This document shows positions 1,413 through 42,050 of a stretch of 64,000 nt of DNA, one piece after another; positions within the stretch are counted from its first letter, which is position 1; the number at the start of each line of letters is the position of its first letter. The stretch is taken from the sequence record OQ834936. The stretch is one strand, 5' to 3'. This DNA is from Shigella phage Henu12. The notes under the pieces are model-generated. The model saw only the letters and a list, made by a program, of their open reading frames with translations, was not told where the DNA came from and searched no databases. A program made the position numbers and the translations under genes.

Positions 1413-1650
1413 ACCTACCTGCACAAACTGAAAATGAATTTTCCCTTTGGAGTCCAACTGCATCTGCACAGATTGAAAATGAAAAACCCCTTTGGAGTCT
1501 AAACCTGCACAAATTTGAAATGAATTTTCCCTTTGGAGTTCAGCTAAAGAAATCTGTCCAGAGTTCTATGCAACTATACCTGCACAAATTTAAAATGAAA
1601 AAGCCCTCCTTACCTGAGATTTTAAACTCAAACTTTGGAGGGCTTGTCTA
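1413..1650. repeat. tandem array of four imperfect direct repeats of about 45 bp (core CTGCACAAAtTtGAAAATGAAttTTCCCTTTGGAGT), last unit ending in an inverted repeat
   Basis: Units start near 1418, 1463, 1504 and 1578; intergenic between the 959-1165 gene and the macro-domain gene. Confidence 0.7.
1590..1650 (-). terminator. putative intrinsic terminator downstream of macro-domain gene (stem AAGCCCUCC/GGAGGGCUU then U-rich run)
   Basis: Inverted repeat 1602-1610/1635-1643 followed on the minus-strand RNA by UUUUCAUUUUAAAUUU; the loop is large so efficiency is uncertain. Confidence 0.35.
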
Positions 1651-5864: not shown

Positions 5865-5920
5865 TTGCACTCCTATTTTGTTAAACATGCAGATAATTAT
5901 ACACTAACCTGCACATTTTT

Positions 5921-5950
5921 CAAATAAAAAAGGCTGCCGAAGCAGCCCCT
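5921..5950 (-). terminator. intrinsic terminator GGCUGC-UUCG-GCAGCC plus U6
   Basis: Hairpin and U-tract on minus-strand RNA downstream of rIIB. Confidence 0.7.
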
Positions 5951-5965
5951 TTAGGAATTTACTTA

Positions 5966-30384: not shown

Positions 30385-30418
30385 CATAATAAAAAGCCCC
30401 CAATTAAGGAGGCTTAAA
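30385..30418 (-). terminator. putative intrinsic terminator (AGCCUCC...GGGGGCU plus U-tract)
   Basis: 7-bp stem with one G-U pair, followed by UUUUAUUAU. Confidence 0.45.
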
Positions 30419-30430
30419 AGTTAATAACTG

Positions 30431-31225
30431 TTACTGCAAGCGAGCACCAGACAGTTCACGTTCAGCCATGCTGTCTAACTGTTCAACAAACTCATCACCA
30501 AAGTTGATTGCCAGCTTAGTACTCAGTACTGCTGCACCAGTTTGCGTGAAGACTTCGTTAAGTGCTTTTGAGTGAGCACCTTGAGAGATTTCTTCAACAA
30601 ACGCAGGGTCTGCTTCAAGCATCTTAGAAACCTCTAAGAGAGCATGGATACCCATAATGCTGAAGATTGCATTGAGCATTGAAGTTAATTGAACCTGAAC
30701 AGGATTCATTTCAATATCTTCACTAATCTCAACAAGACGCTTCATAGTCTCTTCAGTGAGAGTCAGAACTCGTTCAGAGATTTCTTCAAAGCCCCAATCC
30801 AGTTTTGCATAACGTGGAGCTTGGTCACTCATACGTTTTTCAAGTGAAGCCATTACAGATGCAACAGATGCACAGATACACTTCATGATTTCTGCATCAG
30901 ACATGTTATCAAGTTCTTTGATACCAGCTTCAGTCATCTGGATATAACCACCAGAATACATCTCTGCAAATACGTATGCAGCAAAGGCATCAACACCAAT
31001 TGCAATGGTTTTCAAAGCAACTGTCTGGTTACTCAGAAGATATTCAACCTCTTTACGGAAATCTTCGTCATTCTCTACAGCGTTTTTTACAACACGCAGA
31101 GATTCAGGGATAAATTTTCCTGACAGTGAGTTGCTACGCATAATGATAGCAAGAGTCTCAACAGTGTTCAGCATGAATGCTTCGTCAATACCTTTTTCTT
31201 CCAGAATCTCATTTACAGTTTTCAT
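30431..31225 (-). CDS. hypothetical protein (264 aa)
   Basis: ORF track. Confidence 0.5.
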   Translation of the reverse strand: MKTVNEILEEKGIDEAFMLNTVETLAIIMRSNSLSGKFIPESLRVVKNAVENDEDFRKEVEYLLSNQTVALKTIAIGVDAFAAYVFAEMYSGGYIQMTEAGIKELDNMSDAEIMKCICASVASVMASLEKRMSDQAPRYAKLDWGFEEISERVLTLTEETMKRLVEISEDIEMNPVQVQLTSMLNAIFSIMGIHALLEVSKMLEADPAFVEEISQGAHSKALNEVFTQTGAAVLSTKLAINFGDEFVEQLDSMAERELSGARLQ

Positions 31226-31649
31226 CTTTAATCTCTCTCATTTTGTTAATAGTAAGTCGTGATAATCTTAAGCTTTCTTGTGAAGAGAAGTCAAGTCCTT
31301 TTTCAGACCGTGGGAAGTAATTTCTGTCCCACGTATTCTCTGCATCCTGAAGCAGTTGGGATAGACTATCTAAGTCCGTTCCATTTTGCAACTTATTTTT
31401 TAAGGTATCTATCAAAAAGATTGTGTCTTTCGCTTTACGTCTTTCTGAAGATATCTCTTTCATGTGCTCAAATACAGAACACTTTAAACCTTCGTCGTAT
31501 CCACTTGATAGTTCTATCTCATGCTGAACATCAACCATTCGACGATGTTGATAAGCATACTCCTTCTGAGCCTCGATGTAAAGTGCTTCAACTCTTTCTA
31601 AAGCTTGGACAAGGTTATTGATATCTGGGTGAACGTACATCCTCTGCAT
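31209..31649 (-). CDS. hypothetical protein (146 aa)
   Basis: ORF track; first gene of the minus block after the divergent region. Confidence 0.5.
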   Translation of the reverse strand: MQRMYVHPDINNLVQALERVEALYIEAQKEYAYQHRRMVDVQHEIELSSGYDEGLKCSVFEHMKEISSERRKAKDTIFLIDTLKNKLQNGTDLDSLSQLLQDAENTWDRNYFPRSEKGLDFSSQESLRLSRLTINKMREIKDENCK

Positions 31650-31908
31650 GATTGCCTCTGTTAAGTATCTATAAAGATTTTAATCTCTTATCTTTATGTA
31701 TGTTATACATATAACTTTAAAGCTTTTTAAAAGCTATTAAAAATCTTTTAAGACTTTTAAAGAAACTGTATAGTTAATCTATAAAGGGAGTCTATTAAGA
31801 TAAAACCCACTTCGAAAAGACTAACACCTTGTCAAGTAGTTTGTCAACTTGCTTTTTGCAGAAAATTGCTGTAGGGTATTATCCAGAATGATTTGAGAGG
31901 GAGTAAAA
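31650..31908. promoter_or_regulatory. AT-rich divergent intergenic region with short repeats and two TTGTCAA copies
   Basis: Strand-switch point between the minus and plus blocks; near-palindrome AGCTTTTTAAAAGCT. Confidence 0.5.
31855..31882 (+). promoter_or_regulatory. candidate sigma70-like promoter TTTGCA-N16-TATTAT for the DNA polymerase gene
   Basis: Read on plus strand; followed by GAGGGAG RBS and ATG at 31909. Confidence 0.4.
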
Positions 31909-34608
31909 ATGGACAATGTAGATTTCGAAAAATTACATTTGGTTGGTGATACAGAAACTGATGGGTTGCTCCTTGAGTTTACAAAAGCACACGTAATGGC
32001 TTTCGCAGACTATAAAGATGACAGTGATGAACCTGCTGTGTGGGTTTTCACTGATGAGCCTATTCTTGGTCACAAGTATACAAAATACATCAAAGGTGGT
32101 CTGCGTGAAGGTGTTGAGTTTGCACTGAAAGCTAAACGTCTTTGTATCCACAATGGTCTTGGTTATGACTGGTGGGTGTTTAATCACATTGCACCTGACC
32201 TGTGGAACTTTGAGAATCCTAAGTGTAAGCCTTGGAGTGACTTCTTTCAGGATTCACTTATCCAATCTCGCGTACAGTGGATGGATAGACCTACACCAAA
32301 AGGTTACAAAGGTGCTCATGGTTTGGCTGCATGGGGTGCTCGTGTTGGTGTTCGTAAACCAGAGATTGAAGAGTGGGGTGTATGGAATGCAGAGATTCTT
32401 ACTCGTGTTGTAGAAGATATTAAGATTAACGCCAAAACTAAACGTGCTCTTGATAATGAGTACCTTAAGCTTAAGAAGTGTGGTGTTGACACTTATGAAA
32501 CCTATATGCGAGCTAAAGAAACATCTTTCTGGATGAGCCAGCAAGCTATCAACGGTTGGAAAGCTGATGTAGAACTTATGCAGTTCCATGTTAAAGAACT
32601 TGACAAGTTAACTAATGAGTTAGCTGCTGAGGTTGAGCCACACCTGCCACCAACTATCAAGACAAAAGGTAAGGTCACAGGTGAAGAGTTTGCTAAGTCT
32701 TGGAATGAGTATGTGGATACATTTGGTCACGTTGACGGCTTAAAAAGGATTACCAAGTACCCTAAGACAAAGTATCGTGAACAGATGCGTGAAGGTGAGT
32801 TGAAGCAATACCCTATCAAGCCATATGGAAAGCCAACTACAAAGATTTTTAACGTTGAGAAACGTAACTGCTACACACCAACTAATACGGTTACCAAAGA
32901 AGAGTACCCTGAAGGTTTCGTAGCAATGAAAGATGCTCGTGCAGTTTGTAATGAACTGAATGAGAAGATTGGGAAGAAGTGTAAAGATTGGAAACCAGTT
33001 AAGACTGTGAAGATTGTGAAGTACTATAATGTGCATGTTGTAAATCACTTCGAGTTGGAGTCAAGTCGCTACACTGGTTTGATTGATGCACCATTCACAC
33101 CAATTGAGTTTGAAGTTTCACGAATGACTCAGGTAGCTGTGGTGAAGGATTACTTAAAATCTGTTGGTTGGATTCCTGATGATTGGAACTACAAAAAAGA
33201 TTCTGATGGTCGTCCGGTTAAGGTTTGCAGATTCAAAGACAACAAAAAGATGATTCGCAAACATCCTAAGTGGGATGAGATGGTTGAGCGTTGTGGGTTG
33301 AACTATATTGAGCATGAAGGTGTCTATTACATCGAGCATAACTGGTCTGTTAAGAAGTACACAGATGTGCTTGAGCCTTGCTTGATTAGGACTTCACCAA
33401 AGCTTACAGAGTCTTCTTATGATACAATCGAAGGTGAGCTTGGACAGAAGATTGCGAAGTACTATACTTTGATGCACCGACGCAGGACTATTGAGAACTC
33501 AAAGGATGATGAGAAAGGTTGGCTGAACCAGATTCGTCCAGATGGTCGTTTGAGTGCAGGTGCAATGGTGTTTGGTACTTCTACTGGACGTATGACTCAG
33601 TATGGTATTGTAAACGTACCTTCTGGTGCTGCTGTTTACGGTGAGCCAATGAGGGCAGTGTGGATTTGTGAAGAGGGAACCAACGTAGTATCTGTTGATA
33701 TGAACTCTGCACAGCTTGTACTACTCTGTAACTTCATGGGTGATAAAGACTTCACCAAAGCGGTAACAGAGGGTAAAGAAGAGATTGAGTTTGTTCGTCA
33801 AGAGGATGGAAGATACTACTGCAAACACTTTGACCAGTATCTGAATCCAGAGATTGACAAGTATCTGCGTTATGACTCTGAAAACGATTTGTACGTAGTT
33901 TACTCAGGGACTGATGCTCACACTCTGAACAGTATCTACTTCAGCCTTAATGATGAGCAAGATATCTTGACTTGTCGTGCTACTCAGGATGAGAATCTTC
34001 TTCATGAGATTAGCAAGGGACGTAAGAAAGCTAAGAATGGTATCTATGCCCTGTTGTTCGGTGCAGGTGATGAGAAGTTTGCTAAAACAATTAAAGCAGC
34101 AACTACTCAGGAAGGTGCATTGACTAAGCAGACTTACTTTGTGCGCTTGCCGAAGATTAAGAAACTGTTAGACAACTTGGAAGCTGATTTCAAAGCAACT
34201 AAGAAAGCACTTGAAGAGGTGTTTGGTAAAACTGCTGCGATAGCTAAAGGTGGTTTTGTGAAGGTTGCTGGAGCTTGGCTGTGGTGTAAGTCTCCACACA
34301 AGCTGTTAAATTACCTTTTGATGGGTTCAGAAAGTCAAGTCCAGAATGAAGCAATTAACCTTGCATGTCGTCGTATGATTGATGAAGGTTTGATGAAGTT
34401 GAATGGTCGTAAACCAGCTATTGGCGCTCGCTTACTCTGTGCTTACCACGACGAAACAAGTTGGGAATGTCCAGAGCACATGACAGCAGATGTGAAAGCA
34501 GTAACTGACTGGTATTATGGTCAAGCATCTAAGAACCTTGGACTAAGGAAAGAAACCTTGGTAACAGGTACTGGTAAAGTTGGTAAGAGCTGGTATGAGG
34601 TACATTGA
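31909..34608 (+). CDS. DNA polymerase, family A (T7 gp5-like) with 3'-5' exonuclease domain
   Basis: DTETDG exo motif; HGLAAWGARVG, YALLFGAGDEK and HDE blocks resemble T7 DNA polymerase. Confidence 0.9.
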   Translation: MDNVDFEKLHLVGDTETDGLLLEFTKAHVMAFADYKDDSDEPAVWVFTDEPILGHKYTKYIKGGLREGVEFALKAKRLCIHNGLGYDWWVFNHIAPDLWNFENPKCKPWSDFFQDSLIQSRVQWMDRPTPKGYKGAHGLAAWGARVGVRKPEIEEWGVWNAEILTRVVEDIKINAKTKRALDNEYLKLKKCGVDTYETYMRAKETSFWMSQQAINGWKADVELMQFHVKELDKLTNELAAEVEPHLPPTIKTKGKVTGEEFAKSWNEYVDTFGHVDGLKRITKYPKTKYREQMREGELKQYPIKPYGKPTTKIFNVEKRNCYTPTNTVTKEEYPEGFVAMKDARAVCNELNEKIGKKCKDWKPVKTVKIVKYYNVHVVNHFELESSRYTGLIDAPFTPIEFEVSRMTQVAVVKDYLKSVGWIPDDWNYKKDSDGRPVKVCRFKDNKKMIRKHPKWDEMVERCGLNYIEHEGVYYIEHNWSVKKYTDVLEPCLIRTSPKLTESSYDTIEGELGQKIAKYYTLMHRRRTIENSKDDEKGWLNQIRPDGRLSAGAMVFGTSTGRMTQYGIVNVPSGAAVYGEPMRAVWICEEGTNVVSVDMNSAQLVLLCNFMGDKDFTKAVTEGKEEIEFVRQEDGRYYCKHFDQYLNPEIDKYLRYDSENDLYVVYSGTDAHTLNSIYFSLNDEQDILTCRATQDENLLHEISKGRKKAKNGIYALLFGAGDEKFAKTIKAATTQEGALTKQTYFVRLPKIKKLLDNLEADFKATKKALEEVFGKTAAIAKGGFVKVAGAWLWCKSPHKLLNYLLMGSESQVQNEAINLACRRMIDEGLMKLNGRKPAIGARLLCAYHDETSWECPEHMTADVKAVTDWYYGQASKNLGLRKETLVTGTGKVGKSWYEVH

Positions 34609-35120
34609 TGCGAGATTGTGGATTCACACATGAACAGTTAAAGTCTTGGTTAAACTATGACCCCGAAACAGGGGTCTTAACGTGGATTGGCAGGCCTCCA
34701 CATAGTAGTAGGGTGGTTATTGGGAGCCAAGCCGGAGCAATCAAGCGCACAAGGTCTGGTGTGTATATGCACACACAGATTTTAGGATACAGGACAGGCA
34801 ATCACCGAATTGCTTGGTTCTGGATGACAGGCAAGTGGCCTGATAAACACATTGACCACAAAGATGGAGATGGTTTGAATAACGCTTGGGACAATCTCAG
34901 GGAGGCCACAAAAGAACAGAACATGTCTAATAGGAGACAACCCAGAACATCAAAAAACTTAAAAGGTACAAGTAGAAGCAAGTCTGGTAAGTGGATAGCC
35001 CAGATTAACCATAATGGCAAGACTATACATATAGGTACATACACAACAGAAGAAGAAGCCCATAAAGCTTACTGTGAAGCTGCTATTAAACTCCACGGAG
35101 AGTTTGCAAAACTAAGTTGA
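34605..35120 (+). CDS. HNH homing endonuclease with AP2-like domain
   Basis: YDPETGVLTW, IDHKDGDGLNNAWDNLREATKEQN and AP2-like C-terminus; ATGA overlap with the polymerase stop. Confidence 0.7.
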   Translation: MMRDCGFTHEQLKSWLNYDPETGVLTWIGRPPHSSRVVIGSQAGAIKRTRSGVYMHTQILGYRTGNHRIAWFWMTGKWPDKHIDHKDGDGLNNAWDNLREATKEQNMSNRRQPRTSKNLKGTSRSKSGKWIAQINHNGKTIHIGTYTTEEEAHKAYCEAAIKLHGEFAKLS

Positions 35121-35171
35121 CAAGGTGCTCATGGAAGAGTACCTTATACTATATCTTGTATAGGAGGTTAC

Positions 35172-35390
35172 ATGACACTTTCAGACGTTATCCAACAACT
35201 TCAGGTAAGTGGTTACACTCAAGAGCAAATTGATGAGCTAAACATCATATCCATGCCAAACCGTTTTGTTAAAGCTTTTGGGTTAGAAGTTGTAAGGATG
35301 GCACATATACTCATTGTGGATGGTCTTCTTATCAAAGACAGAACTGGTGCTTTGAAAGGTAAGAGAATCGATATCACGGAGATATTATGA
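35172..35390 (+). CDS. hypothetical protein (72 aa)
   Basis: ORF track; AGGAGG RBS. Confidence 0.45.
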   Translation: MTLSDVIQQLQVSGYTQEQIDELNIISMPNRFVKAFGLEVVRMAHILIVDGLLIKDRTGALKGKRIDITEIL

Positions 35391-35596
35391 GTCACCGTGG
35401 TAGAACTCATCTTGCCATGATGCAAGGGGCTTCAAAAGAGACTATCAAGAATCGTAAGAAAACTCTTTTTGACAGAATGAATAGACTCATTGACAATGCA
35501 AGTCTACCTAACTCTGAAAAGGTTTTCTTGAAAGGGAATCTGAAGAGTATTGCACAGGAACTTATTGACATTGAATTTTGGAGACACCAAAAATGA
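35387..35596 (+). CDS. hypothetical protein (69 aa)
   Basis: ORF track. Confidence 0.45.
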   Translation: MSHRGRTHLAMMQGASKETIKNRKKTLFDRMNRLIDNASLPNSEKVFLKGNLKSIAQELIDIEFWRHQK

Positions 35597-35796
35597 CTTA
35601 TGAAGAAGCTATTGAAGCCATGAAGAGTGGTCACAAAGTACGTAATGAAAATTTCACATCTGATGAGTTCTTCGAAATGAAAGATGGGAAGATTGTCTGT
35701 GAAATGGGTTACCCAATGGCTACATGGTATAAGGGAGAACCTTGGCAGAAAACTGGATGGAGTATCTTTAATGAAATTTTACACCATTTGGGGTAG
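35578..35796 (+). CDS. hypothetical protein (72 aa)
   Basis: ORF track; preferred over the overlapping 35684-35914 frame. Confidence 0.4.
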   Translation: METPKMTYEEAIEAMKSGHKVRNENFTSDEFFEMKDGKIVCEMGYPMATWYKGEPWQKTGWSIFNEILHHLG

Positions 35797-35903
35797 AGTC
35801 GGTAAAGGTTATGACTGGATTCTCCTTAAAACAAATGTTAAAAGTAATGAGATAGTTTACTACAAAGTCTATTACCATAAAACTTTTAGAGAGGTAGAGT
35901 ATC

Positions 35904-36155
35904 GTGAGCAGTAGAGAAGAAGAAGCTTTAGCAATCTTCAAGAATGAAGATAAATCAATATCTTTTGTATCAGAGGCTTGGTGCAGGGGCTTAGGTTATG
36001 ATTGGTATCTCTTCTTATGTGCTAAGAAAGATGTTAAACCAGTTGATGAAACCCGATTCAAAGAACTGTATACTGTCTGCCAAGAGGGTTATGAAGAACA
36101 CTACGAAGGCTCTTTGAATCCTGTAAATTCAAAAGCTTCAGATTTATTTTATTGA
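35904..36155 (+). CDS. hypothetical protein (83 aa)
   Basis: ORF track. Confidence 0.45.
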   Translation: MSSREEEALAIFKNEDKSISFVSEAWCRGLGYDWYLFLCAKKDVKPVDETRFKELYTVCQEGYEEHYEGSLNPVNSKASDLFY

Positions 36156-36165
36156 GAGGTCTAAA

Positions 36166-36402
36166 ATGTTAAAATTATTGATACCAGCTTTAGTAGTTCT
36201 ACTAGTTGGGTGTAACCCTTCTTACGAGAATAAGGATGCTTCTTACAGACTTCCTCCAGAAATGCAAGACTGCAAGATTTATAAGCTTAATGGTGATGCA
36301 ACTAGCAGGGATGTTATTGTAGTTCGCTGTCCAAATTCTCAGACGACTACTTCTTACAAGTATGGAAAGAATAGTCAGTCACATACTACTGTTTTTGATT
36401 GA
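36166..36402 (+). CDS. putative lipoprotein (signal peptide ending LLVGC)
   Basis: Lipobox-like LVGC after a hydrophobic signal. Confidence 0.5.
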   Translation: MLKLLIPALVVLLVGCNPSYENKDASYRLPPEMQDCKIYKLNGDATSRDVIVVRCPNSQTTTSYKYGKNSQSHTTVFD

Positions 36403-36412
36403 GGATATTAAT

Positions 36413-36619
36413 ATGCAGGTTCTGGTAAATTTTATCTATAAGTATGAAAACATCTTCAGCACCATGACTGAAGGTCAACGCAATCCAGTTATCCCACGGG
36501 AAGGGGAGATTGTTGAGATTAATGACTGGAACCACAGAGTTGCAGAGGTCAAGCATAAACTTAAAGATGGTTATGACCACCAAGTTGTAAATGTGTATTT
36601 AGAAGGTAAGTGGCAATGA
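36413..36619 (+). CDS. hypothetical protein (68 aa)
   Basis: Start set at internal Met with GAGGA RBS (track start 36362). Confidence 0.4.
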   Translation: MQVLVNFIYKYENIFSTMTEGQRNPVIPREGEIVEINDWNHRVAEVKHKLKDGYDHQVVNVYLEGKWQ

Positions 36620-36710
36620 GCATCTTACATATCATCTCTGAAGATTTTGGAGGGTGCTCTTGGCACTCATTTTTCACAAAAGGTTGTCTAGCTTGTGAGG
36701 CACGTAAAAA

Positions 36711-37811
36711 ATGACAATTCTGTACAAACAAAACAAAGATGGTTCTTTCAACGTTTGGTCATGTGTTGCTGTAGGTGATAAAGTTGTTACAACCTACGGT
36801 AAAGAAAATGGCAAGATGATGTTCGAAGAGTACACAGCAGAACCAAAGAACATTGGTAAGAAGAATGAGCGTAATGCTGAACAGCAAGCTCTCTTTGAAG
36901 TTGCTGCTAAGTACAAGAAGCAGGTTGACCGTAAAGGGTATGCTTACACAAAGTCTGAAGCAGAGAATGTTGAGAAGGTTGGTGTACAGCTTGCTCAGGA
37001 TGCTTCCAAGATAAGTCACAAGAAGTATCTGGTATTCCCTGCCGATGCTCAACCTAAACTTGATGGTGTTCGTTGCAGGATTTCAAGAGATGCTGACTCA
37101 GAAAGTTTTACGGCATATTCTCGTGAGAACACGGTATACAACATTCCTGTAGAGTTGATTCCTGATGTTCTTCTTATGCTGAAACTGCACAAAGATGTTG
37201 AGGATTTCGATGGTGAGATTTATGCTCATGGTTGGGACTTGGAAGATATTGTATCTATGATTAAGAATGCTGACAATCCAGACCGTCACCTTCTTAAGTT
37301 CTACTGGTATGATATCTGTGACAAGACTAAATCTTGGCCTGAGCGTCGTGAAGTTATTGAGACTTCACCTTTAAATGACCTGAGAAATGGCTGTAGAGTT
37401 GTCCCTGTTAAATCTCGTCGTGTTAACTCTTGGGAAGAATTTGACACTGCTCATGATAAGTGGGTTGAAGCGAAGTTTGAAGGGGCAATGTACCGTTCAA
37501 TCTCCCCAGATTCATTCTATGAGTGTGGTCACCGTTCATACTTCTTGATTAAACATAAGAAGATGCACACCAAAGAGTTCACAGTAACGGGTGTGAAGAC
37601 TGATAAGCGTGGTCATGGCAAGTTCGTTGTAGAGACTCTTCCTAACGTCTTTGTAGATGTTTCATGGAAAACTACACACGAGAAGAAAAAGTATCTTGCT
37701 GAACATCCTGAAGAGTTTATCGGGAAGCCTTTAACGGTTCAGTTCCAGAAGATGACTCGTAAGGGTTCTTTACAGTTCCCTGTTGGGCTAGTAATTCGAG
37801 ACTATGAATAG
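36711..37811 (+). CDS. ATP-dependent DNA ligase
   Basis: Adenylation motif I KLDGVR and overall size (366 aa) typical of phage ligases. Confidence 0.75.
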   Translation: MTILYKQNKDGSFNVWSCVAVGDKVVTTYGKENGKMMFEEYTAEPKNIGKKNERNAEQQALFEVAAKYKKQVDRKGYAYTKSEAENVEKVGVQLAQDASKISHKKYLVFPADAQPKLDGVRCRISRDADSESFTAYSRENTVYNIPVELIPDVLLMLKLHKDVEDFDGEIYAHGWDLEDIVSMIKNADNPDRHLLKFYWYDICDKTKSWPERREVIETSPLNDLRNGCRVVPVKSRRVNSWEEFDTAHDKWVEAKFEGAMYRSISPDSFYECGHRSYFLIKHKKMHTKEFTVTGVKTDKRGHGKFVVETLPNVFVDVSWKTTHEKKKYLAEHPEEFIGKPLTVQFQKMTRKGSLQFPVGLVIRDYE

Positions 37812-37819
37812 AGGCCAGT

Positions 37820-37969
37820 ATGTTTAGTGCAATTGTTCTGTTTATATTTGTTGTTTTATCATTGGCTTACTTCACAAGTAAACTCTTAAGTATAACATAC
37901 AAAGCAGCCTTAGCCCTTACTCTGTTGTCATTTGCAGTAAATGCAGCAGTTAGAATGTATTTAGTATAA
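37820..37969 (+). CDS. small hydrophobic membrane protein (49 aa)
   Basis: Hand translation MFSAIVLFIFVVLSLAYFTSKLLSITYKAALALTLLSFAVNAAVRMYLV; GAGG RBS 5 nt upstream. Confidence 0.35.
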   Translation: MFSAIVLFIFVVLSLAYFTSKLLSITYKAALALTLLSFAVNAAVRMYLV

Positions 37970-37974
37970 AATTG

Positions 37975-38003
37975 TTGACATGAGTAACCTGACGGGTATA
38001 CTA
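37975..38003 (+). promoter_or_regulatory. sigma70-like promoter TTGACA-N16/17-TATACT
   Basis: Good -35 and -10 about 40 nt upstream of the secreted-protein gene. Confidence 0.55.
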
Positions 38004-38046
38004 CCTATATAGAAAATTATATAGGAACCCGTCAGAAACCTCGGGG

Positions 38047-38433
38047 GTGTTTATGAAAAAGTTACTTGTTGGTGTCATTGCTCTTGGTATGAGTTTTAGT
38101 GCAGCAGCTATGAAGATGCCTGAAGCAAACTTTAATGGTATCGCTTTAGAATCTTGTAAGATTGTACAGAAAATCGCTTCAAATGCTGGAGAGTTGACTA
38201 AACCGTTGTCTGCTCAGACTGTTCAAGAAATGACTGATAAGATGGTTGACTACAACTACCATTTTATGGGAGATTACTATGACAGATTAGCAGATGAGAT
38301 GGTCACTCAGAACGTTGACCTTCTTGATAGCAAAGGTATTGAGACTGTAGAAGATGTGAAAGACAACTTTATGCGTGAGTCTTTCAAAGGTGTTCAATAC
38401 TTTATTGAAAATCGTCACTGCATGGGTTTATAA
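38047..38433 (+). CDS. secreted/periplasmic hypothetical protein (signal peptide)
   Basis: N-terminal signal MKKLLVGVIALGMSFSAAA. Confidence 0.5.
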   Translation: MFMKKLLVGVIALGMSFSAAAMKMPEANFNGIALESCKIVQKIASNAGELTKPLSAQTVQEMTDKMVDYNYHFMGDYYDRLADEMVTQNVDLLDSKGIETVEDVKDNFMRESFKGVQYFIENRHCMGL

Positions 38434-38435
38434 TC

Positions 38436-38639
38436 ATGAAGAAGAACATCTGTAGAACAGACTATGGTGAAGTGGTCGATGATGACGGAGTAGTTATTTA
38501 CAGAGTTTGGGCTAATGATTTTGCAACCGTTGTAGAATCTTTAGATAACTACATTAATGGGACTCGTGAAAACGTCAGAGCAACTAATCTTGATTCGTTA
38601 ATAGACACTTCTCGAAAACGGAGAAAGAAAGATGAATGA
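38436..38639 (+). CDS. hypothetical protein (67 aa)
   Basis: ORF track. Confidence 0.45.
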   Translation: MKKNICRTDYGEVVDDDGVVIYRVWANDFATVVESLDNYINGTRENVRATNLDSLIDTSRKRRKKDE

Positions 38640-38931
38640 AGTCTTTGACCCATATGCACCTCAAGATTCTTGGGAGGCTGATAGAGAGGCTGAAATGGAG
38701 AGTTATGTCTGTCCAATGGATATAGAAGAGATGAAAGACTTTGTATCTTTCAGATTCTTTAAAGAGATTGAGAAGCTAAAACTTTCTCAGGCTCAAGTAG
38801 CAACTGTTTGTGAAATCTCGCAGAGTCGTGTGTCAAATATCATTAACGACCCTCAAAAGATTTCTTTAGAGTACATGCTTAATGCTTGTACAAAACTTGG
38901 TGTAAATTTTAACTTAAGGCTGGCAGATTAA
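38632..38931 (+). CDS. helix-turn-helix DNA-binding protein
   Basis: HTH-like segment LSQAQVATVCEISQSRVSNI. Confidence 0.5.
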   Translation: MNEVFDPYAPQDSWEADREAEMESYVCPMDIEEMKDFVSFRFFKEIEKLKLSQAQVATVCEISQSRVSNIINDPQKISLEYMLNACTKLGVNFNLRLAD

Positions 38932-38932
38932 T

Positions 38933-39292
38933 ATGAAACGTGAAAATGCAATCTTTAATGATAACTTTGCAATTGGCTTCTATGGTAAACCAACTCCAGC
39001 AGAGAAACTTTATGGTAATGCAATTCTGGAGACCTTGAAAGAGGTTTACACAACTGGTGGTATGAAGCATACTGAAGCAAACCGTGTAAGAGGTTATATG
39101 GCAATTGGCTCTGCAATCTCTAACATCAAACTTGAAACTACAAGTGCTAAAAAGGTACGAGACCACTTCATCAAAGAGTTGTCAGATAACCTAGATGGTG
39201 TTGAAGTCAAGGCTGTCTGGTTAGATGTTGATGGTCACAACTACACAACTTTTGTGTTTAAAAATGAGGATATCAAATGTCTCTTCCCTTAA
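38933..39292 (+). CDS. hypothetical protein (119 aa)
   Basis: ORF track. Confidence 0.5.
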   Translation: MKRENAIFNDNFAIGFYGKPTPAEKLYGNAILETLKEVYTTGGMKHTEANRVRGYMAIGSAISNIKLETTSAKKVRDHFIKELSDNLDGVEVKAVWLDVDGHNYTTFVFKNEDIKCLFP

Positions 39293-39780
39293 AACTCGAT
39301 TTATACTTTGGGTACAGTGTATTGCAAGGCAGCATACTATCACTACCAAAGTCAGATTATCGTTGTGATTTAGGTTCTGTGAAACGTGCATCACACTTTA
39401 ACAACAACATCTTAGGCTTGCAGACACTTCACAGGTGGCTTGAGGAAGATGGACGGTTGAATGAATATCTTCACCAACTAGAACTAGCCAAAGAAGAAGG
39501 GCATATGGGTTGGGATTTACTACCCCATCTGTACAAGCCTGCAAGCCCTATGGAGATACGCTATAACGAACAAGCAATTGATAGTTATAACAAATATAAT
39601 ATAACTATTGGCTCCAGAGCTTGGAAGGAGTATATGAAACTCCGTGAAATCATCATACAGACTATTGGAAAGCGTGTAGCAAAAGGTCTTGCTTATGATG
39701 AAAAGGTTGACTGGAATACACAAAAGTGTATAAAATTCTTCAAGTACGATAATGACAAGGATACTTTTGTAGAGGTTTAA
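39277..39780 (+). CDS. hypothetical protein (167 aa)
   Basis: ORF track. Confidence 0.5.
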   Translation: MSLPLKLDLYFGYSVLQGSILSLPKSDYRCDLGSVKRASHFNNNILGLQTLHRWLEEDGRLNEYLHQLELAKEEGHMGWDLLPHLYKPASPMEIRYNEQAIDSYNKYNITIGSRAWKEYMKLREIIIQTIGKRVAKGLAYDEKVDWNTQKCIKFFKYDNDKDTFVEV

Positions 39781-39781
39781 C

Positions 39782-40297
39782 ATGAAAATTGGAATTACCT
39801 TTTGCCAGCCTGAAGCAGAGTTCTTGAAATCAATGTTGTCTGAGCATATGAAAGCTACAAATCATACTGAGAAGACATTCTTGATTGACACTAACTATGA
39901 TGCAGGAACTATTGAGTTCATTGATGAAGACACTGCTGACTCTCTGTGTGTTCTTCCTGCTCACTTATTTACTCCAGAGCTACGTGACAGTCGTTCTATT
40001 GAAGTTAATCTGGAGCCAAGTATTGAACTCTACTCAGACATACAGTATCCAAGAAGCTTTAAAGCATTGCTAAACATCTTCATAGCTGATATTGTAGAGA
40101 TTGTTAAGCAGACCGAAGGTGGTCATGTAGTAACTGCTGAGTATGAACAAGGGACTATCAAACTGACAGGTGACTTTGGTTCTATGAGTTTCTTAGACTT
40201 TGTTCCAAAACACTTTGAAGATTTCCTGTCAAGTGAAGTTGATGACCTTGATTTCATACTAAAATTTGAACGCACTTTTAAGGTAAACAAAAAATGA
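39782..40297 (+). CDS. hypothetical protein (171 aa)
   Basis: ORF track. Confidence 0.5.
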   Translation: MKIGITFCQPEAEFLKSMLSEHMKATNHTEKTFLIDTNYDAGTIEFIDEDTADSLCVLPAHLFTPELRDSRSIEVNLEPSIELYSDIQYPRSFKALLNIFIADIVEIVKQTEGGHVVTAEYEQGTIKLTGDFGSMSFLDFVPKHFEDFLSSEVDDLDFILKFERTFKVNKK

Positions 40298-40566
40298 AAA
40301 TCTTAAGCGGAGTATCACAGTGTTACATGAATGATGGTGAGCCAGTTAAATGCTGCCATTGTGGAGGTGAGAACTTCCAAGGTGAAGTTTCAGAGATTGT
40401 CTCTGGCAACATCGCTGAAGAGTACACCCGTTGCTGTGGATGTGGAAAGATTTTATCTTTTTGGGCTTATGGAAGTTATGAACCACAACCTCACCTTATT
40501 TACCATCCGAACAGGATTGTGAAGCGTGTTCTGAACTGGTTCATTATCAAAGGATTTACAAAATGA
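40294..40566 (+). CDS. zinc-ribbon protein (CxxC...CxxC)
   Basis: CCHCGG and CCGCG cysteine clusters. Confidence 0.45.
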   Translation: MKILSGVSQCYMNDGEPVKCCHCGGENFQGEVSEIVSGNIAEEYTRCCGCGKILSFWAYGSYEPQPHLIYHPNRIVKRVLNWFIIKGFTK

Positions 40567-41108
40567 TTAAGCTAATTTTTGCAAGTGGTATTAACGGGGA
40601 ATTTGGCACAGCTACTGGAATGCCTTGGCCTCGTAATAAACAAGATATGGCAGAGTTTAAGAAGCAGACTATTAACCAGTTAGTCTTGGTGGGTAGCGAA
40701 ACTTGGAAGACTCTTGGGAGCAAACCTTTGCCAAACCGTGAGAACCTTGTCTTGACAAACTCTCTTGACTTTTATGGTCTGGACTTTAAAGATGATTCTC
40801 ATTGCAAAGCAAAAGTTAAGTCTGAAGCTTTTGGGGCTTTCCTAAAGTATATTGATAGTTCTATTGATGAAGATGTTTTAGTAATCGGTGGAGCCAATAT
40901 CTTAATCTCAGCTTTGCCGTATGCTGACGTAGTTTTCCACAGTGTTATTAAGGAAGTTACTGAAGAGGCTACTGTCAAGCTACCTTATGAGGGTTTCTTC
41001 CAGTACTTGTATGACACAGAGTTATTTGCTAAAGTACAGTCCAAACCCTCAGAAGATAAGTCTGTGGTGTTTGATACCTATGTTCCACAAGTAAGAGGAC
41101 GTTTCTAA
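40563..41108 (+). CDS. frd: dihydrofolate reductase
   Basis: DHFR-like N-terminus (GMPWP...F) and VIGGANI glycine motif; directly upstream of thymidylate synthase. Confidence 0.75.
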   Translation: MIKLIFASGINGEFGTATGMPWPRNKQDMAEFKKQTINQLVLVGSETWKTLGSKPLPNRENLVLTNSLDFYGLDFKDDSHCKAKVKSEAFGAFLKYIDSSIDEDVLVIGGANILISALPYADVVFHSVIKEVTEEATVKLPYEGFFQYLYDTELFAKVQSKPSEDKSVVFDTYVPQVRGRF

Positions 41109-41109
41109 T

Positions 41110-42009
41110 ATGTCACAAGCAGATGTAAGCTACAAAGCTATTTTAAACCATGTTTTATCAGTTGGTGAGTTGCGTAAAACCCGAACTGGCTCAGTGATTT
41201 CGACCTTTGCTCCACCTGAGTTCCGTTTTGATATGCGTAGTGGATTCCCATTAATCACCTCAAAACAAACATTTATGCGTCAAGTCCTCGGTGAAGCATT
41301 ATGGTTTATGAACGGTGAAAACCAACTAGGCCATTTGCGTTACAGAACTTGGGGGGAGAACGACGGAGAGCGTTGGACTATCTGGACAGATGATTTTAAA
41401 CGTTGGTTGAAAACAACCTATGCTACAGAGAATGATTGGCTGGAGGACGCTGGAGGAAGAATCTACGGAGTACAATGGAGAGCCTACGAAGGTCATGGTG
41501 GCGTTGTTGTAGACCAGTTGAGTAATCTTGTAGAGAAGATGAGAAAGTCCCCTACAGACCGTTACATGCTCGTTAACGCATGGAATGCAGCAGATATCTC
41601 AAGTAACTCTATGGCATTAGCACCTTGTCATGTACTTTTTCAGATTTATATCTCGAACACTAATGAGGTGGATTTGAAATGGTATCAGCGTTCTTGTGAT
41701 ACGTTCTTAGGGTTACCGTTTAACATCGCTTCCTATGCCTTTATCTTGGAAGTGTTGTGTAAACTGACGGGATATACACCGCGATATCTGATAGGGACTT
41801 ATGGTGATACTCAAATATACCAGAACCATATGTCGCAGGTTTTTCAACTTCTTGGTAATGAAGAGTTTCCAGCACCTAAGTTTGAAATTCATCAAGATTT
41901 GAAGTCTCTTGAAGACTTGAGACATATGACAGCAGATGACTTTCTAGGTGGGTTGAAAGGGTATAAACATGCTGGTAAGATTGAAGCACCTTTATCAGTA
42001 GGTAAGTAG
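41110..42009 (+). CDS. thyA: thymidylate synthase
   Basis: Active-site block PCH-FQ and QRSCDTFLGLPFNIASYA. Confidence 0.92.
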   Translation: MSQADVSYKAILNHVLSVGELRKTRTGSVISTFAPPEFRFDMRSGFPLITSKQTFMRQVLGEALWFMNGENQLGHLRYRTWGENDGERWTIWTDDFKRWLKTTYATENDWLEDAGGRIYGVQWRAYEGHGGVVVDQLSNLVEKMRKSPTDRYMLVNAWNAADISSNSMALAPCHVLFQIYISNTNEVDLKWYQRSCDTFLGLPFNIASYAFILEVLCKLTGYTPRYLIGTYGDTQIYQNHMSQVFQLLGNEEFPAPKFEIHQDLKSLEDLRHMTADDFLGGLKGYKHAGKIEAPLSVGK

Positions 42010-42010
42010 A

Positions 42011-42050
42011 AACAAAAAAGGCTCCCGTAAAAAGGAGCCTTAGAATTATT
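42011..42050. terminator. bidirectional intrinsic terminator (GGCUCC-loop-GGAGCC flanked by A- and U-runs) at the convergence point
   Basis: Hairpin 42020-42039 with A6 upstream and U-rich downstream; sits between the thyA stop and the stop of the 42046-42420 gene. Confidence 0.6.

What the first reader, a model, noticed from the sequence alone, without database searches (positions are those of the whole stretch)
31650..31908. AT-rich divergent control region at the strand switch
Seen: a 260-bp gap between the minus and plus blocks with short direct repeats (CTTTTAA), a near-palindrome AGCTTTTTAAAAGCT and two TTGTCAA copies, plus a candidate polymerase promoter. Inference: divergent promoters and possibly a replication origin.
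Basis: partly seen in the sequence, partly recalled or inferred. Interest (0 to 1): 0.4.

Follow-up and report, generated by a model that had tools for sequence, protein, structure and literature searches.

The report
Divergent early promoter region, Felix-O1-like phage
This 259-base gap is the conserved control region from which a Felix-O1-like phage starts transcribing its DNA-replication genes in both directions; it is an ordinary kind of element, and whether it is also the replication origin remains untested.

Summary
The window is a Mooglevirus (Ounavirinae, Felix-O1-like) phage. Singly the motifs are near chance; comparison with relatives shows they are constrained. The gap aligns end to end in about 258 phage genomes, and 119 of 160 bases in 31689-31848 are invariant. 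The two TTGTCAA copies read TTGACA on the minus strand. The distal copy forms the best sigma-70 promoter here (TTGACA-N18-TGnTAGTCT). It recurs at the same place in distant relatives whose gaps do not align. A weaker rightward promoter sits back to back with it. The 150 bp downstream of the leftward start is the least stable duplex in the 64 kb. It holds an 11-bp repeat and six copies of CTNTWAAG; that motif is also enriched in phiEa21-4. Divergent early promoters are well supported and were already assumed for Felix O1 in 2010. A transcription-activated origin or a regulator-binding array fits the sequence but is unproven. Interest is low to moderate.

The parts
31650..31908 (.). Whole intergenic control region at the only divergent strand switch of the window
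   Evidence: ORF map. Aligns end to end at 80-100% identity, single copy, in about 258 Ounavirinae records. Orthologous to the Felix O1 ORF96/ORF97 gap.
31818..31847 (-). P_L1, the predicted main leftward sigma-70 promoter. -35 TTGACA at 31847-31842, 18-nt spacer, TG at 31826-31825, -10 TAGTCT at 31823-31818. Predicted start at about 31812-31810.
   Evidence: PWM score 10.46, in the top 0.01% of all positions in the window. Same place in every lineage: Felix and SUSP TTGACA-18-TGnTAATCT, L030 TTGACA-17-TAATGT, phiEa21-4 TTGACA-17-TACATT. The start site is inferred.
31830..31835 (-).
   Evidence: Conserved in L003-L028 and L030. No usable -10 lies 15-19 nt downstream. Role unknown.
31849..31877 (+). 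P_R1, a candidate rightward promoter back to back with P_L1. -35 TTGCTT at 31849-31854, 17-nt spacer, -10 TAGGGT at 31872-31877.
   Evidence: Footprint pattern: invariant CTTGCTTTTT, about 10 variable bases, then conserved GTAnnGT at fixed spacing. A stronger version sits at the same place in L030 (TTGCAA-17-TACTAT, 8.19). The PWM score here is only 4.8, top 0.4%. Inferred.
31855..31882 (+).
   Evidence: score 7.32. Not conserved: Moogle has TATTAG and the Felix group TATGAG.
31746..31774 (+). P_R2, a candidate distal rightward promoter, TTTTAA-17-TATAGT, inside the A+T-rich array
   Evidence: Score 7.03. The block CTGTATAGT is invariant in all Moogle, Felix and SUSP-type sequences. L030 has TAGACA-17-TACAAT (9.48) at the equivalent place. 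Inferred.
31702..31730 (-). P_L2, a weak proximal leftward promoter match, TTAAAA-17-TATAAC. Its -10 lies in the conserved hairpin.
   Evidence: Score 7.0. phiEa21-4 carries a strong, GenBank-annotated promoter (TTGACT-18-TATGAT, 12.47) at the same distance from the right-hand gene.
31656..31805 (.). A+T-rich segment, the least stable duplex in the 64-kb window; a candidate DNA-unwinding element and the leader of the P_L1 transcript
   Evidence: Nearest-neighbour free energy is ranked first of all windows at 60, 100 and 150 bp, z 4.6-5.1, 79-83% A+T.
31719..31751 (.). Three tandem 11-bp units, consensus AAAGCTTTTAA
   Evidence: Tandem Repeats Finder: period 11, 3.0 copies, 81% matches.
31721..31735 (.). 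Perfect 7+1+7 palindrome AGCTTTTTAAAAGCT
   Evidence: Shifted to CTTTTAAAAG in L005 and L028, and broken by one base in L006 and L019.
31695..31711 (.). Inverted repeat TATGTAT-GTT-ATACATA
   Evidence: Paired in all 6 distinct lineage sequences, with two pairs changed on both sides (TACGTAT/ATACGTA, AACGTAT/ATACGTT). 11 of 500 shuffles reach this.
31658..31665 (.). CTNTWAAG motif copy (CTGTTAAG)
31669..31676 (.). CTNTWAAG motif copy (CTATAAAG), part of the 10-bp direct repeat ATCTATAAAG
31715..31722 (.). CTNTWAAG motif copy (CTTTAAAG, palindromic)
31745..31752 (.). CTNTWAAG motif copy (CTTTTAAG)
31779..31786 (.). CTNTWAAG motif copy (CTATAAAG), second copy of ATCTATAAAG. It varies in concert with 31692-31701.
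31792..31799 (.). CTNTWAAG motif copy (CTATTAAG)
31896..31903 (+). Ribosome-binding site AGAGGGAG of the polymerase gene
   Evidence: Invariant AGAGGGAGT in all close relatives. Annotated as a ribosome-binding site in phage Moogle.
31654..31659 (-). Ribosome-binding site (AGAGG) of the 146-aa gene
   Evidence: Sequence. Annotated as a ribosome-binding site in Moogle.
31909..34608 (+). Family A DNA polymerase, 899 aa, first rightward gene
   Evidence: Pfam DNA_pol_A 6.5e-14. Annotations.
31209..31649 (-). 146-aa protein of unknown function, first leftward gene
   Evidence: phrog_4039, unknown function. No Pfam or PDB match. All-helical model, pLDDT 67.5, with no fold match. Absent from L030.
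30431..31225 (-). 264-aa protein, second leftward gene
   Evidence: phrog_4251, labelled 'minor tail protein'. No Pfam match.
30388..30414 (-). Rho-independent terminator that closes the two-gene leftward unit
   Evidence: Stem AGCCTCC...GGGGGCT followed by TTTTATT. Annotated as a terminator at the same place in Moogle.

Best explanation
The gap is the conserved early control region of the replication module of a Felix-O1-like (Ounavirinae) phage. Host sigma-70 RNA polymerase starts transcription in both directions from back-to-back promoters whose -35 hexamers are one base apart.

P_L1 (minus strand, TTGACA-N18-TGnTAGTCT) should start at about 31811. It would transcribe a roughly 160-nt A+T-rich leader, then the 146-aa and 264-aa genes, up to a terminator at about 30400. 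P_R1 (TTGCTT-N17-TAGGGT), possibly helped by the distal P_R2 (TTTTAA-N17-TATAGT), would transcribe the DNA polymerase operon.

The A+T-rich stretch between P_L1 and the 146-aa gene carries an array of the near-palindromic motif CTNTWAAG, an 11-bp repeat and a small conserved inverted repeat. The most likely role of this array is as binding sites that tune or shut off early transcription.

Shown here: the anatomy, the conservation, the promoter-like quality, the motif clustering and the low duplex stability. Inferred: the start sites, which rightward promoter is used, and what binds the motifs.
For: - The window is a Mooglevirus, 99.5% identical to Shigella phage Henu11.
- P_L1 scores 10.46, top 0.01% of the window and comparable to the phage's other intergenic promoters at 10.5-13.2.
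- P_L1 is present at the same position in six close lineages. It is also present in L030 and phiEa21-4, whose gaps are otherwise diverged.
- P_R1 shows a -35 / variable spacer / -10 footprint, with a stronger homologue in L030.
- 119 of 160 positions in 31689-31848 are invariant across 28 sequences, equal to or better than the polymerase coding sequence and far better than the leftward genes.
- Many other intergenic gaps do not align to Felix O1 at all, whereas this one aligns fully.
- The CTNTWAAG cluster has 6 copies against 0.24 expected here. The count is 6 against 0.24 in Felix O1 and 4 against 0.13 in phiEa21-4, the latter out of sample.
- The Felix O1 paper assumes divergent early promoters in exactly this gap and shows ORF96 (the polymerase) transcribed within 5 minutes (PMC3185647; orthology).
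- A terminator lies after the second leftward gene.
Against: - No transcript 5' ends have been mapped in any relative.
- The P_L1 -10 hexamer matches only 3 of 6 positions (T1, A2, T6) and relies on the TGn extension.
- P_R1 scores only 4.8, and about five such matches per strand are expected by chance in a gap of this size.
- The better-scoring TTTGCA-16-TATTAT is not conserved.
- Two earlier annotation efforts found no promoter in this gap (PMC3185647; UAB_Phi87 BPROM table).
- Against Felix O1 alone the gap is 80% identical, versus a genome mean of 79%. Its best 100 bp is only in the top 14%, so conservation is solid but not exceptional genome-wide.
- A 160-nt conserved leader is longer than a promoter region needs, so something else is probably encoded there.
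Confidence: 0.7

Rival explanations
1. The gap is also, or mainly, the phage's replication origin, of the transcription-activated kind. The P_L1 transcript enters the easily melted A+T-rich stretch directly downstream, forms an R-loop or primer, and the T7-like replisome encoded on both sides loads there. This works like the T7 primary origin or T4 oriF/oriG. It is compatible with the promoter explanation.
For: - 31656-31805 is the least stable duplex of the 64 kb, z about 5, and begins about 5 bp downstream of the predicted P_L1 start.
- It holds an 11-bp tandem repeat and an array of short motifs.
- It is single copy per genome.
- It lies between a family A polymerase and a gp4-like Toprim+DnaB primase-helicase, with an ATP-dependent ligase nearby.
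- The leader is conserved beyond what promoters require.
- Sense-strand GC3 skew is higher in the two blocks that would be co-directional with forks leaving 31.7 kb (0.02 and 0.12) than in the head-on block (-0.06).
Against: - There are no replication data at all, and no paper on an Ounavirinae origin was found.
- The overall GC-skew flip coincides with gene orientation and flips back at 42 kb with the genes.
- The GC3 difference is not significant (P about 0.08-0.09) and is confounded with gene class.
- No DnaA, IHF or Fis consensus sites are present.
- The repeats are 8-11 bp, shorter than classical iterons.
- A+T-rich, repeat-rich DNA is also typical of plain promoter regions.
Confidence: 0.3
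2. The CTNTWAAG array and the small inverted repeat are operators for a phage-encoded regulator. Candidates are the Xre-type helix-turn-helix protein at 38632-38931 and the 146-aa product of the first leftward gene. Binding would shut off or rebalance early transcription as infection proceeds.
For: - The motif is near-palindromic and often occurs in pairs 11-13 bp apart. It is enriched in every lineage, including the non-alignable phiEa21-4 gap.
- Copies change in concert between lineages: CTTTAT in Moogle, CTTTAC in SUSP and Sf13, CTTAAC in Felix. This is what a change in a shared binding specificity would produce.
- The inverted repeat overlaps the -10 of the proximal leftward promoter.
- A phage Xre HTH protein exists (Pfam HTH_3, 3e-8). 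It is 72% identical between Moogle-type and Felix-type phages.
- L030 lacks the 146-aa gene and has the weakest motif cluster.
Against: - No binding data exist.
- The Xre protein was not detected in Kolesnikvirus at E <= 1e-4, although the motif cluster is there.
- The 146-aa model is a plain helical bundle with no DNA-binding fold match.
- The palindrome TATGTAT-N3-ATACATA has no convincing second copy in the window.
- The motif was defined after looking at this gap.
Confidence: 0.3
3. The conserved stretch acts as RNA: a structured 5' leader of the leftward mRNA, or a small RNA, that controls translation, stability or processing.
For: - The 7-bp hairpin at 31695-31711 keeps pairing through two double-sided changes.
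- RNAalifold finds a nested structure on the minus strand with two covarying pairs.
- The stretch is predicted to be transcribed from P_L1.
Against: - There is no Rfam match at E <= 1.
- Folding energy is no better than shuffles (z -1.0 on the minus strand, -1.8 on the plus strand).
- The covariation term is only -0.2 kcal/mol.
- The covarying columns belong to repeated motif copies, so concerted change of binding sites explains them equally well.
- The stems are short and A-U rich.
Confidence: 0.1
4. The gap is merely an A+T-rich spacer whose repeats and palindromes arise by chance from low-complexity composition.
For: Each short motif alone is close to chance expectation.
Against: - Long invariant blocks persist across genera.
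- Promoter hexamers are conserved in position in non-alignable relatives.
- No composition-matched shuffle of the gap, 0 of 2000, reaches the observed motif count in five of the six genomes tested.
Confidence: 0.03

Closest known systems
Felix O1 ORF96-ORF97 intergenic region (Whichard et al. 2010, PMC3185647)
   Same: It is the orthologous locus. The polymerase (ORF96) and the 146-aa homologue (ORF97) diverge from a gap of about 236 bp. The gap aligns over 98% of the query at about 81% identity. The authors assumed that early transcription starts from divergent promoters there, and showed ORF96 transcribed within 5 minutes.
   Different: That paper reported no recognisable sigma-70 promoter in the gap, and neither did the BPROM list for UAB_Phi87. 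Here the promoters are placed, and a motif array, an 11-bp repeat and a stability minimum are described. The present phage belongs to a different genus (Mooglevirus).
Back-to-back divergent sigma-70 promoter regions of bacteria and phages (own knowledge)
   Same: Two oppositely oriented promoters have adjacent -35 elements, share upstream DNA and drive diverging operons.
   Different: The leftward transcript has an unusually long (about 160 nt) conserved A+T-rich leader full of short palindromes. No regulator is known.
T7 primary origin (promoters 1.1A and 1.1B plus an A+T-rich region) and T4 oriF/oriG (middle promoter plus a downstream unwinding element) (own knowledge)
   Same: A promoter is followed immediately by the most easily melted DNA of the region. 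The replisome is T7-like: family A polymerase, gp4-like primase-helicase and ATP-dependent ligase.
   Different: The promoter here is a host sigma-70 type, not a phage-polymerase or MotA-dependent one. Origin activity has never been measured. The resemblance is one of layout only.
Annotated promoter in the Erwinia phage phiEa21-4 record (NC_011811, upstream of gp91)
   Same: It occupies the same gap in a distant member of the subfamily, overlaps a CTTTAAAG motif and lies at the distance where this window has the weak P_L2 match.
   Different: In phiEa21-4 the proximal promoter is strong (TTGACT-18-TATGAT), and a homing endonuclease gene separates the gap from the polymerase. Here the distal P_L1 is the strong one.
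Iteron-type origins (lambda ori, plasmid oriV) (own knowledge)
   Same: Clustered direct and inverted short repeats lie next to A+T-rich DNA near replication genes.
   Different: The repeats are 8-11 bp rather than about 17-22 bp. No initiator gene is recognisable and there are no DnaA boxes.

Membership tests
Sigma-70 (host RNA polymerase) promoter: P_L1 | -35 hexamer close to TTGACA | tested here: met
   TTGACA, 6 of 6, at 31847-31842 on the minus strand.
Sigma-70 (host RNA polymerase) promoter: P_L1 | -10 hexamer close to TATAAT, with A at position 2 and T at position 6, 16-18 nt after the -35 | tested here: met
   TAGTCT has T1, A2 and T6 (3 of 6), an 18-nt spacer and a TGn extension. Total PWM score is 10.46, top 0.01%. 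TAATCT, TAATGT and TACATT occur in relatives.
Sigma-70 (host RNA polymerase) promoter: P_L1 | A transcript 5' end 6-8 nt downstream of the -10 | not testable with these tools
   No transcript data are available. The predicted start is 31812-31810.
Sigma-70 (host RNA polymerase) promoter: P_R1 | -35 and -10 hexamers of adequate quality at 16-18 nt spacing | tested here: inconclusive
   TTGCTT-17-TAGGGT scores 4.8, top 0.4%, which is expected by chance several times in the gap. It is supported only by the conservation pattern and by the stronger L030 homologue.
Divergent (back-to-back) promoter region | Flanking genes transcribed away from each other, with a promoter for each inside the gap | tested here: met
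   The genes diverge. The leftward promoter is strong, and rightward candidates are present and conserved. The strength of the rightward one is uncertain.
Divergent (back-to-back) promoter region | Both flanking genes expressed early | not testable with these tools
   Indirect only: Felix O1 ORF96 was detected by RT-PCR within 5 minutes (PMC3185647).
Transcription-activated phage origin (T7 primary origin, T4 oriF/oriG type) | A promoter directly upstream of a DNA-unwinding element | tested here: met
   The predicted P_L1 start is at about 31811. The least stable duplex of the window is 31805-31656.
Transcription-activated phage origin (T7 primary origin, T4 oriF/oriG type) | Replication initiates at this site (copy-number peak, replication bubbles, origin-plasmid amplification) | not testable with these tools
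   No data exist. GC3 skew is only weakly suggestive, P about 0.08-0.09.
Transcription-activated phage origin (T7 primary origin, T4 oriF/oriG type) | A persistent RNA-DNA hybrid or primer made from the promoter transcript | not testable with these tools
   This needs an experiment.
Iteron / DnaA-type origin | Three or more iterons of about 17-22 bp bound by a dedicated initiator | tested here: not met
   Only 8-bp motifs and an 11-bp triple repeat are present. No initiator-like domain was found in the neighbouring proteins.
Iteron / DnaA-type origin | DnaA boxes or IHF sites next to the A+T-rich region | tested here: not met
   There are no matches to TTWTNCACA or WATCAANNNNTTR in the gap. 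The one 8-of-9 DnaA-like match (31879) is not conserved.
Known RNA family (Rfam) | A covariance-model match | tested here: not met
   No match at E <= 1 in 31000-32500 on either strand.

The most novel reading that the evidence does not exclude
The conserved A+T-rich CTNTWAAG array directly downstream of P_L1 is the still-unmapped replication origin of the Felix-O1-like phages. It would be a host-sigma-70-driven, transcription-activated origin feeding a T7-like replisome, with the short motif bound by an unidentified phage factor.
Probability: 0.25. Interest if true: 0.5.

Novelty: new member of a known kind. Interest (0 to 1): 0.3.

Why it matters
Felix-O1-like phages are widely used for Salmonella typing, biocontrol and therapy. 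How their transcription is timed and where replication starts are still unknown. The 2010 genome paper could not find the promoters it assumed in this gap.

This analysis gives concrete targets that can be tested directly: predicted start sites, a subfamily-wide 8-bp motif and a candidate unwinding element. It would help anyone engineering these phages or mapping their origin. It does not change any general concept.

Tried and rejected
- **Rfam scan of the gap and flanks:** nothing.
- **Single-strand folding of both strands and of the polymerase leader:** no better than shuffles.
- **Host-factor consensus scans (IHF, DnaA, Fis, CRP, oriC 13-mer):** none in the gap. The one DnaA-like 8-of-9 match is not conserved.
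- **Recurrent phage-specific promoter built on TTGCTT (T4 MotA-box-like):** 8 matches against 3.6 expected, none at other gene starts, and the spacing is 3 bp longer than in T4 middle promoters. Rejected.
- **Second copy of the element in the window or genome:** none.
- **Exact-pattern scan of viral contigs with CTTGTCAAG-N2-6-TGTCAA:** too unspecific, mostly unrelated contigs, not used.
- **Small ORFs inside the gap:** a 13-aa ORF on the minus strand and a 27-aa ORF with an ATT start on the plus strand, seen by eye. Neither is conserved in the Felix group.
- **T4-type late promoter TATAAATA:** the TATAAAG copies become TGTTAAG or TATTAAG in the Felix group.
- **Function of the 146-aa and 264-aa proteins:** no Pfam or PDB sequence match, and a single-sequence model of 146 aa with no fold match.
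- **'More conserved than any coding DNA':** checked and toned down. Against Felix O1 the gap is only slightly above the genome mean.
- **GC skew as origin evidence:** it tracks gene orientation.
- **Short BLAST match to Bacillus phage SPO1L5:** 46 bp, an A+T-rich chance hit.

Full report
**What the window is.** A 2-kb stretch around the finding matches 259 phage records. The best is Shigella phage Henu11 at 99.5%, followed by Shigella phages Sf14-Sf19 and Citrobacter phage Moogle. These belong to the genus Mooglevirus of the subfamily Ounavirinae, the Felix-O1-like myoviruses. The gene map shows a minus-strand block (320-31649), a plus-strand block (31909-42009) and a second minus-strand block (42046-63972). 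The finding therefore sits at the only divergent switch in the window.

On the left are a 146-aa protein of unknown function and a 264-aa protein. Then come a terminator, dNMP kinase and a Toprim+DnaB (T7 gp4-like) primase-helicase. On the right are a family A DNA polymerase, an HNH-AP2 endonuclease, small ORFs, an ATP-dependent ligase, an Xre-type HTH protein, dihydrofolate reductase (named from the Felix O1 record) and thymidylate synthase.

**Checking the observation.** The gap is 259 bp (31650-31908).
- CTTTTAA at 31745 and 31754 (+) and 31727 (-).
- AGCTTTTTAAAAGCT at 31721-31735, a perfect 7+1+7 palindrome.
- TTGTCAA at 31829 and 31841.
- Promoter-like hexamer pairs.

Singly these are unimpressive. 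TTGTCAA occurs 38 times against 23 expected and CTTTTAA 41 times against 22 expected. The tandem TTGACA-N6-TTGACA turns up in 10% of shuffles. The case for function comes from other evidence.

**Conservation.** I fetched 30 related loci from IMG/VR through the polymerase N-terminus. I added Felix O1, phiEa21-4 and SB18 from GenBank. The gap aligns end to end in Moogle-, Sf13-, SUSP- and Felix-type phages.
- In 31689-31848, 119 of 160 positions are invariant across 28 distinct sequences. That is at least as good as the polymerase gene and much better than the leftward genes.
- A BLAST search finds the gap once per genome in about 258 Ounavirinae records at 80-100% identity.
- I then checked whether this is exceptional genome-wide, and it is not. 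Against Felix O1 alone the gap is 80.3% identical, versus a genome mean of 78.8%, and its best 100 bp is in the top 14% of windows. However, many other intergenic gaps do not align at all.
- The conclusion is clear purifying selection on non-coding DNA, but not an outlier.

**Promoters.**
- *Strand logic.* TTGTCAA read on the minus strand is TTGACAA. Across the window, TTGACAA is mostly oriented with the sense of the local genes. The phage's clear intergenic promoters use TTGACA-N17-TAnnnT.
- *P_L1.* A position-weight scan of both strands puts one candidate far ahead of the rest: TTGACA (31847-31842), an 18-nt spacer, TGn and TAGTCT (31823-31818). It scores 10.46, in the top 0.01% of the window and the same range as the phage's other promoters.
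- *P_L1 in relatives.* The same promoter sits at the same distance from the right-hand gene in every lineage. L030 has TTGACA-17-TAATGT and phiEa21-4 has TTGACA-17-TACATT, although the polymerases of those phages are only about 62% identical in protein sequence and their gaps hardly align, or do not align at all. Its predicted start is 31812-31810.
- *P_R1.* Immediately to the right, one base from the P_L1 -35, lies the invariant CTTGCTTTTT. About 10 variable bases follow, then a conserved GTAnnGT. This is the footprint of a -35 / spacer / -10 arrangement: TTGCTT-17-TAGGGT, at 31849-31877. By score it is weak, at 4.8. L030 has a good promoter there, TTGCAA-17-TACTAT at 8.19.
- *Other matches.* A distal rightward match, TTTTAA-17-TATAGT (31746-31774), has an invariant -10 block and a strong L030 counterpart, TAGACA-17-TACAAT. 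A weak proximal leftward match (31730-31702) coincides with the strong annotated promoter of phiEa21-4.
- *The leftward unit.* It is short: two genes, then a terminator at about 30388-30414.

**The A+T-rich leader.** Between the predicted P_L1 start and the 146-aa gene lies 31656-31805.
- *Stability.* It is the least stable duplex of all 64 kb at the 60, 100 and 150 bp scales (z 4.6-5.1; 79-83% A+T).
- *Repeats and symmetry.* It contains three tandem 11-bp units, AAAGCTTTTAA. It also contains an imperfect 82-bp dyad and a 7-bp inverted repeat at 31695-31711. That repeat stays fully paired through two double-sided changes in six lineages.
- *Motif cluster.* The stretch is a cluster of one short near-palindromic motif, CTNTWAAG. 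There are six exact copies against 0.24 expected from the rest of the window. I defined the motif after looking at this gap, so the fair tests are the other genomes.
- *Motif in other genomes.* Felix O1 has 6 copies against 0.24 expected and SUSP has 6 against 0.39. phiEa21-4, whose gap is not alignable to this one, has 4 against 0.13 (P about 1e-5, 0 of 2000 composition-matched shuffles). SB18 has 4 against 0.18, and L030 a weaker 3 against 0.49.
- *Pattern of copies.* Copies often come in pairs 11-13 bp apart. Copies on opposite strands change in concert between lineages: CTTTAT, CTTTAC, CTTAAC.

**What the leader is not.**
- There is no Rfam family.
- There is no folding-energy signal, and the RNAalifold covariation term is negligible.
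- There are no IHF, DnaA, Fis or CRP consensus sites.
- No conserved small ORF is present.
- No second copy exists elsewhere.

**Interpretation.** The best-supported reading is an early, host-polymerase-driven, divergent control region for the replication module. This agrees with the assumption in the Felix O1 genome paper that early transcription starts from divergent promoters between genes 96 and 97. That paper also reports that ORF96 is transcribed within 5 minutes. However, it found no recognisable promoter in the gap (PMC3185647; orthology). The BPROM list for UAB_Phi87 has none there either. The present analysis places the promoters.

The motif array most likely binds a protein. Candidates are the phage Xre-type HTH protein and the 146-aa first gene product. 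Neither can be tested here. The Xre protein is not detectable in Kolesnikvirus, and the 146-aa model is an uninformative helical bundle.

**The origin question.** The layout is a promoter followed at once by the most meltable DNA, carrying short repeats, with a T7-like replisome encoded on both sides. This resembles the T7 primary origin and T4 oriF/oriG (own knowledge). That is a resemblance of layout, not a membership.

The GC-skew minimum at 31-32 kb cannot be used as evidence. Skew flips back at 42 kb together with gene orientation. Sense-strand GC3 skew differs between blocks in the direction an origin here would predict (0.02 and 0.12 against -0.06). But the difference is not significant and is confounded with gene class. 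No literature on an Ounavirinae origin was found. I put the origin reading at about 0.25-0.3, compatible with the promoter reading.

**Verdict.** The element is real, conserved and functionally important to the phage, but it is of an ordinary kind that was already anticipated in the literature. The small new points are these: the placement of the promoters, the identification of TTGTCAA as a minus-strand -35 element, the subfamily-wide CTNTWAAG array, and the stability minimum.

Noticed in passing
window 1-64000: GATC is completely absent from the 64-kb window: 0 sites against about 195 +/- 13 expected from dinucleotide-preserving shuffles. This looks like total avoidance of a Dam / MboI-type site. 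The Felix O1 genome paper does not mention it.
   Followed up: partly
window 1417-1539, with a similar single copy near 5907-5916: A tandem array of about 45-bp units (2.9 copies, 75% matches) lies in the long gap 1166-1669. Each unit ends in TTGTGCAGGT on the sense (minus) strand and sits next to terminator-like hairpins. A further ATGTGCAGGT lies in the 5889-5965 gap, upstream of a TATAAT. This may be a phage-specific regulatory or promoter motif.
   Followed up: partly
window 34605-35120 (+); L033 1974-2450; L034 2038-2517: An HNH plus AP2-domain homing-endonuclease gene overlaps the stop codon of the polymerase gene. In phiEa21-4 and SB18 an HNH endonuclease gene is instead inserted between the control region and the polymerase, so their polymerase is no longer the first rightward gene.
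   Followed up: partly
window 30431-31225 (-): The 264-aa ORF is labelled 'minor tail protein' by PHROGs and RefSeq. Yet it lies in the early replication block, is co-transcribed with the first leftward gene and has no Pfam or PDB match. The label looks doubtful.
   Followed up: partly
window 38632-38931 (+): A 99-aa Xre-type helix-turn-helix protein (Pfam HTH_3, 3e-8) is encoded in the rightward block behind its own strong promoter (TTGACA-N16-TATACT, from about 37975). It is found in the same 258 phage records as the alignable form of the gap, and is 72% identical between Moogle- and Felix-type phages.
   Followed up: partly
L030 1778-2986: A distant relative (polymerase 62% identical) lacks the 146-aa gene altogether. 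Its gap is about 400 bp and carries an additional very strong leftward promoter, TTGACA-17-TATAGT (score 13.3), close to the 269-aa gene.
   Followed up: no
window 31650-31908 in other GenBank records: Several deposited genomes extend the polymerase CDS into the gap or annotate a hypothetical protein there. No ORF in the gap is conserved, so these are probably over-annotations.
   Followed up: no
window 42010-42045: The convergent strand switch carries a single G+C-rich hairpin (GGCTCCCGTAAAAAGGAGCC) with A/T runs on both sides. It looks like a bidirectional terminator and is 94% identical to Felix O1.
   Followed up: no
window 31785-31791 and 31898-31904: AGGGAGT, the core of the polymerase ribosome-binding site, also occurs 113 bp upstream inside the gap. 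The upstream copy is lost in Felix-type phages and is not followed by a conserved start codon.
   Followed up: partly
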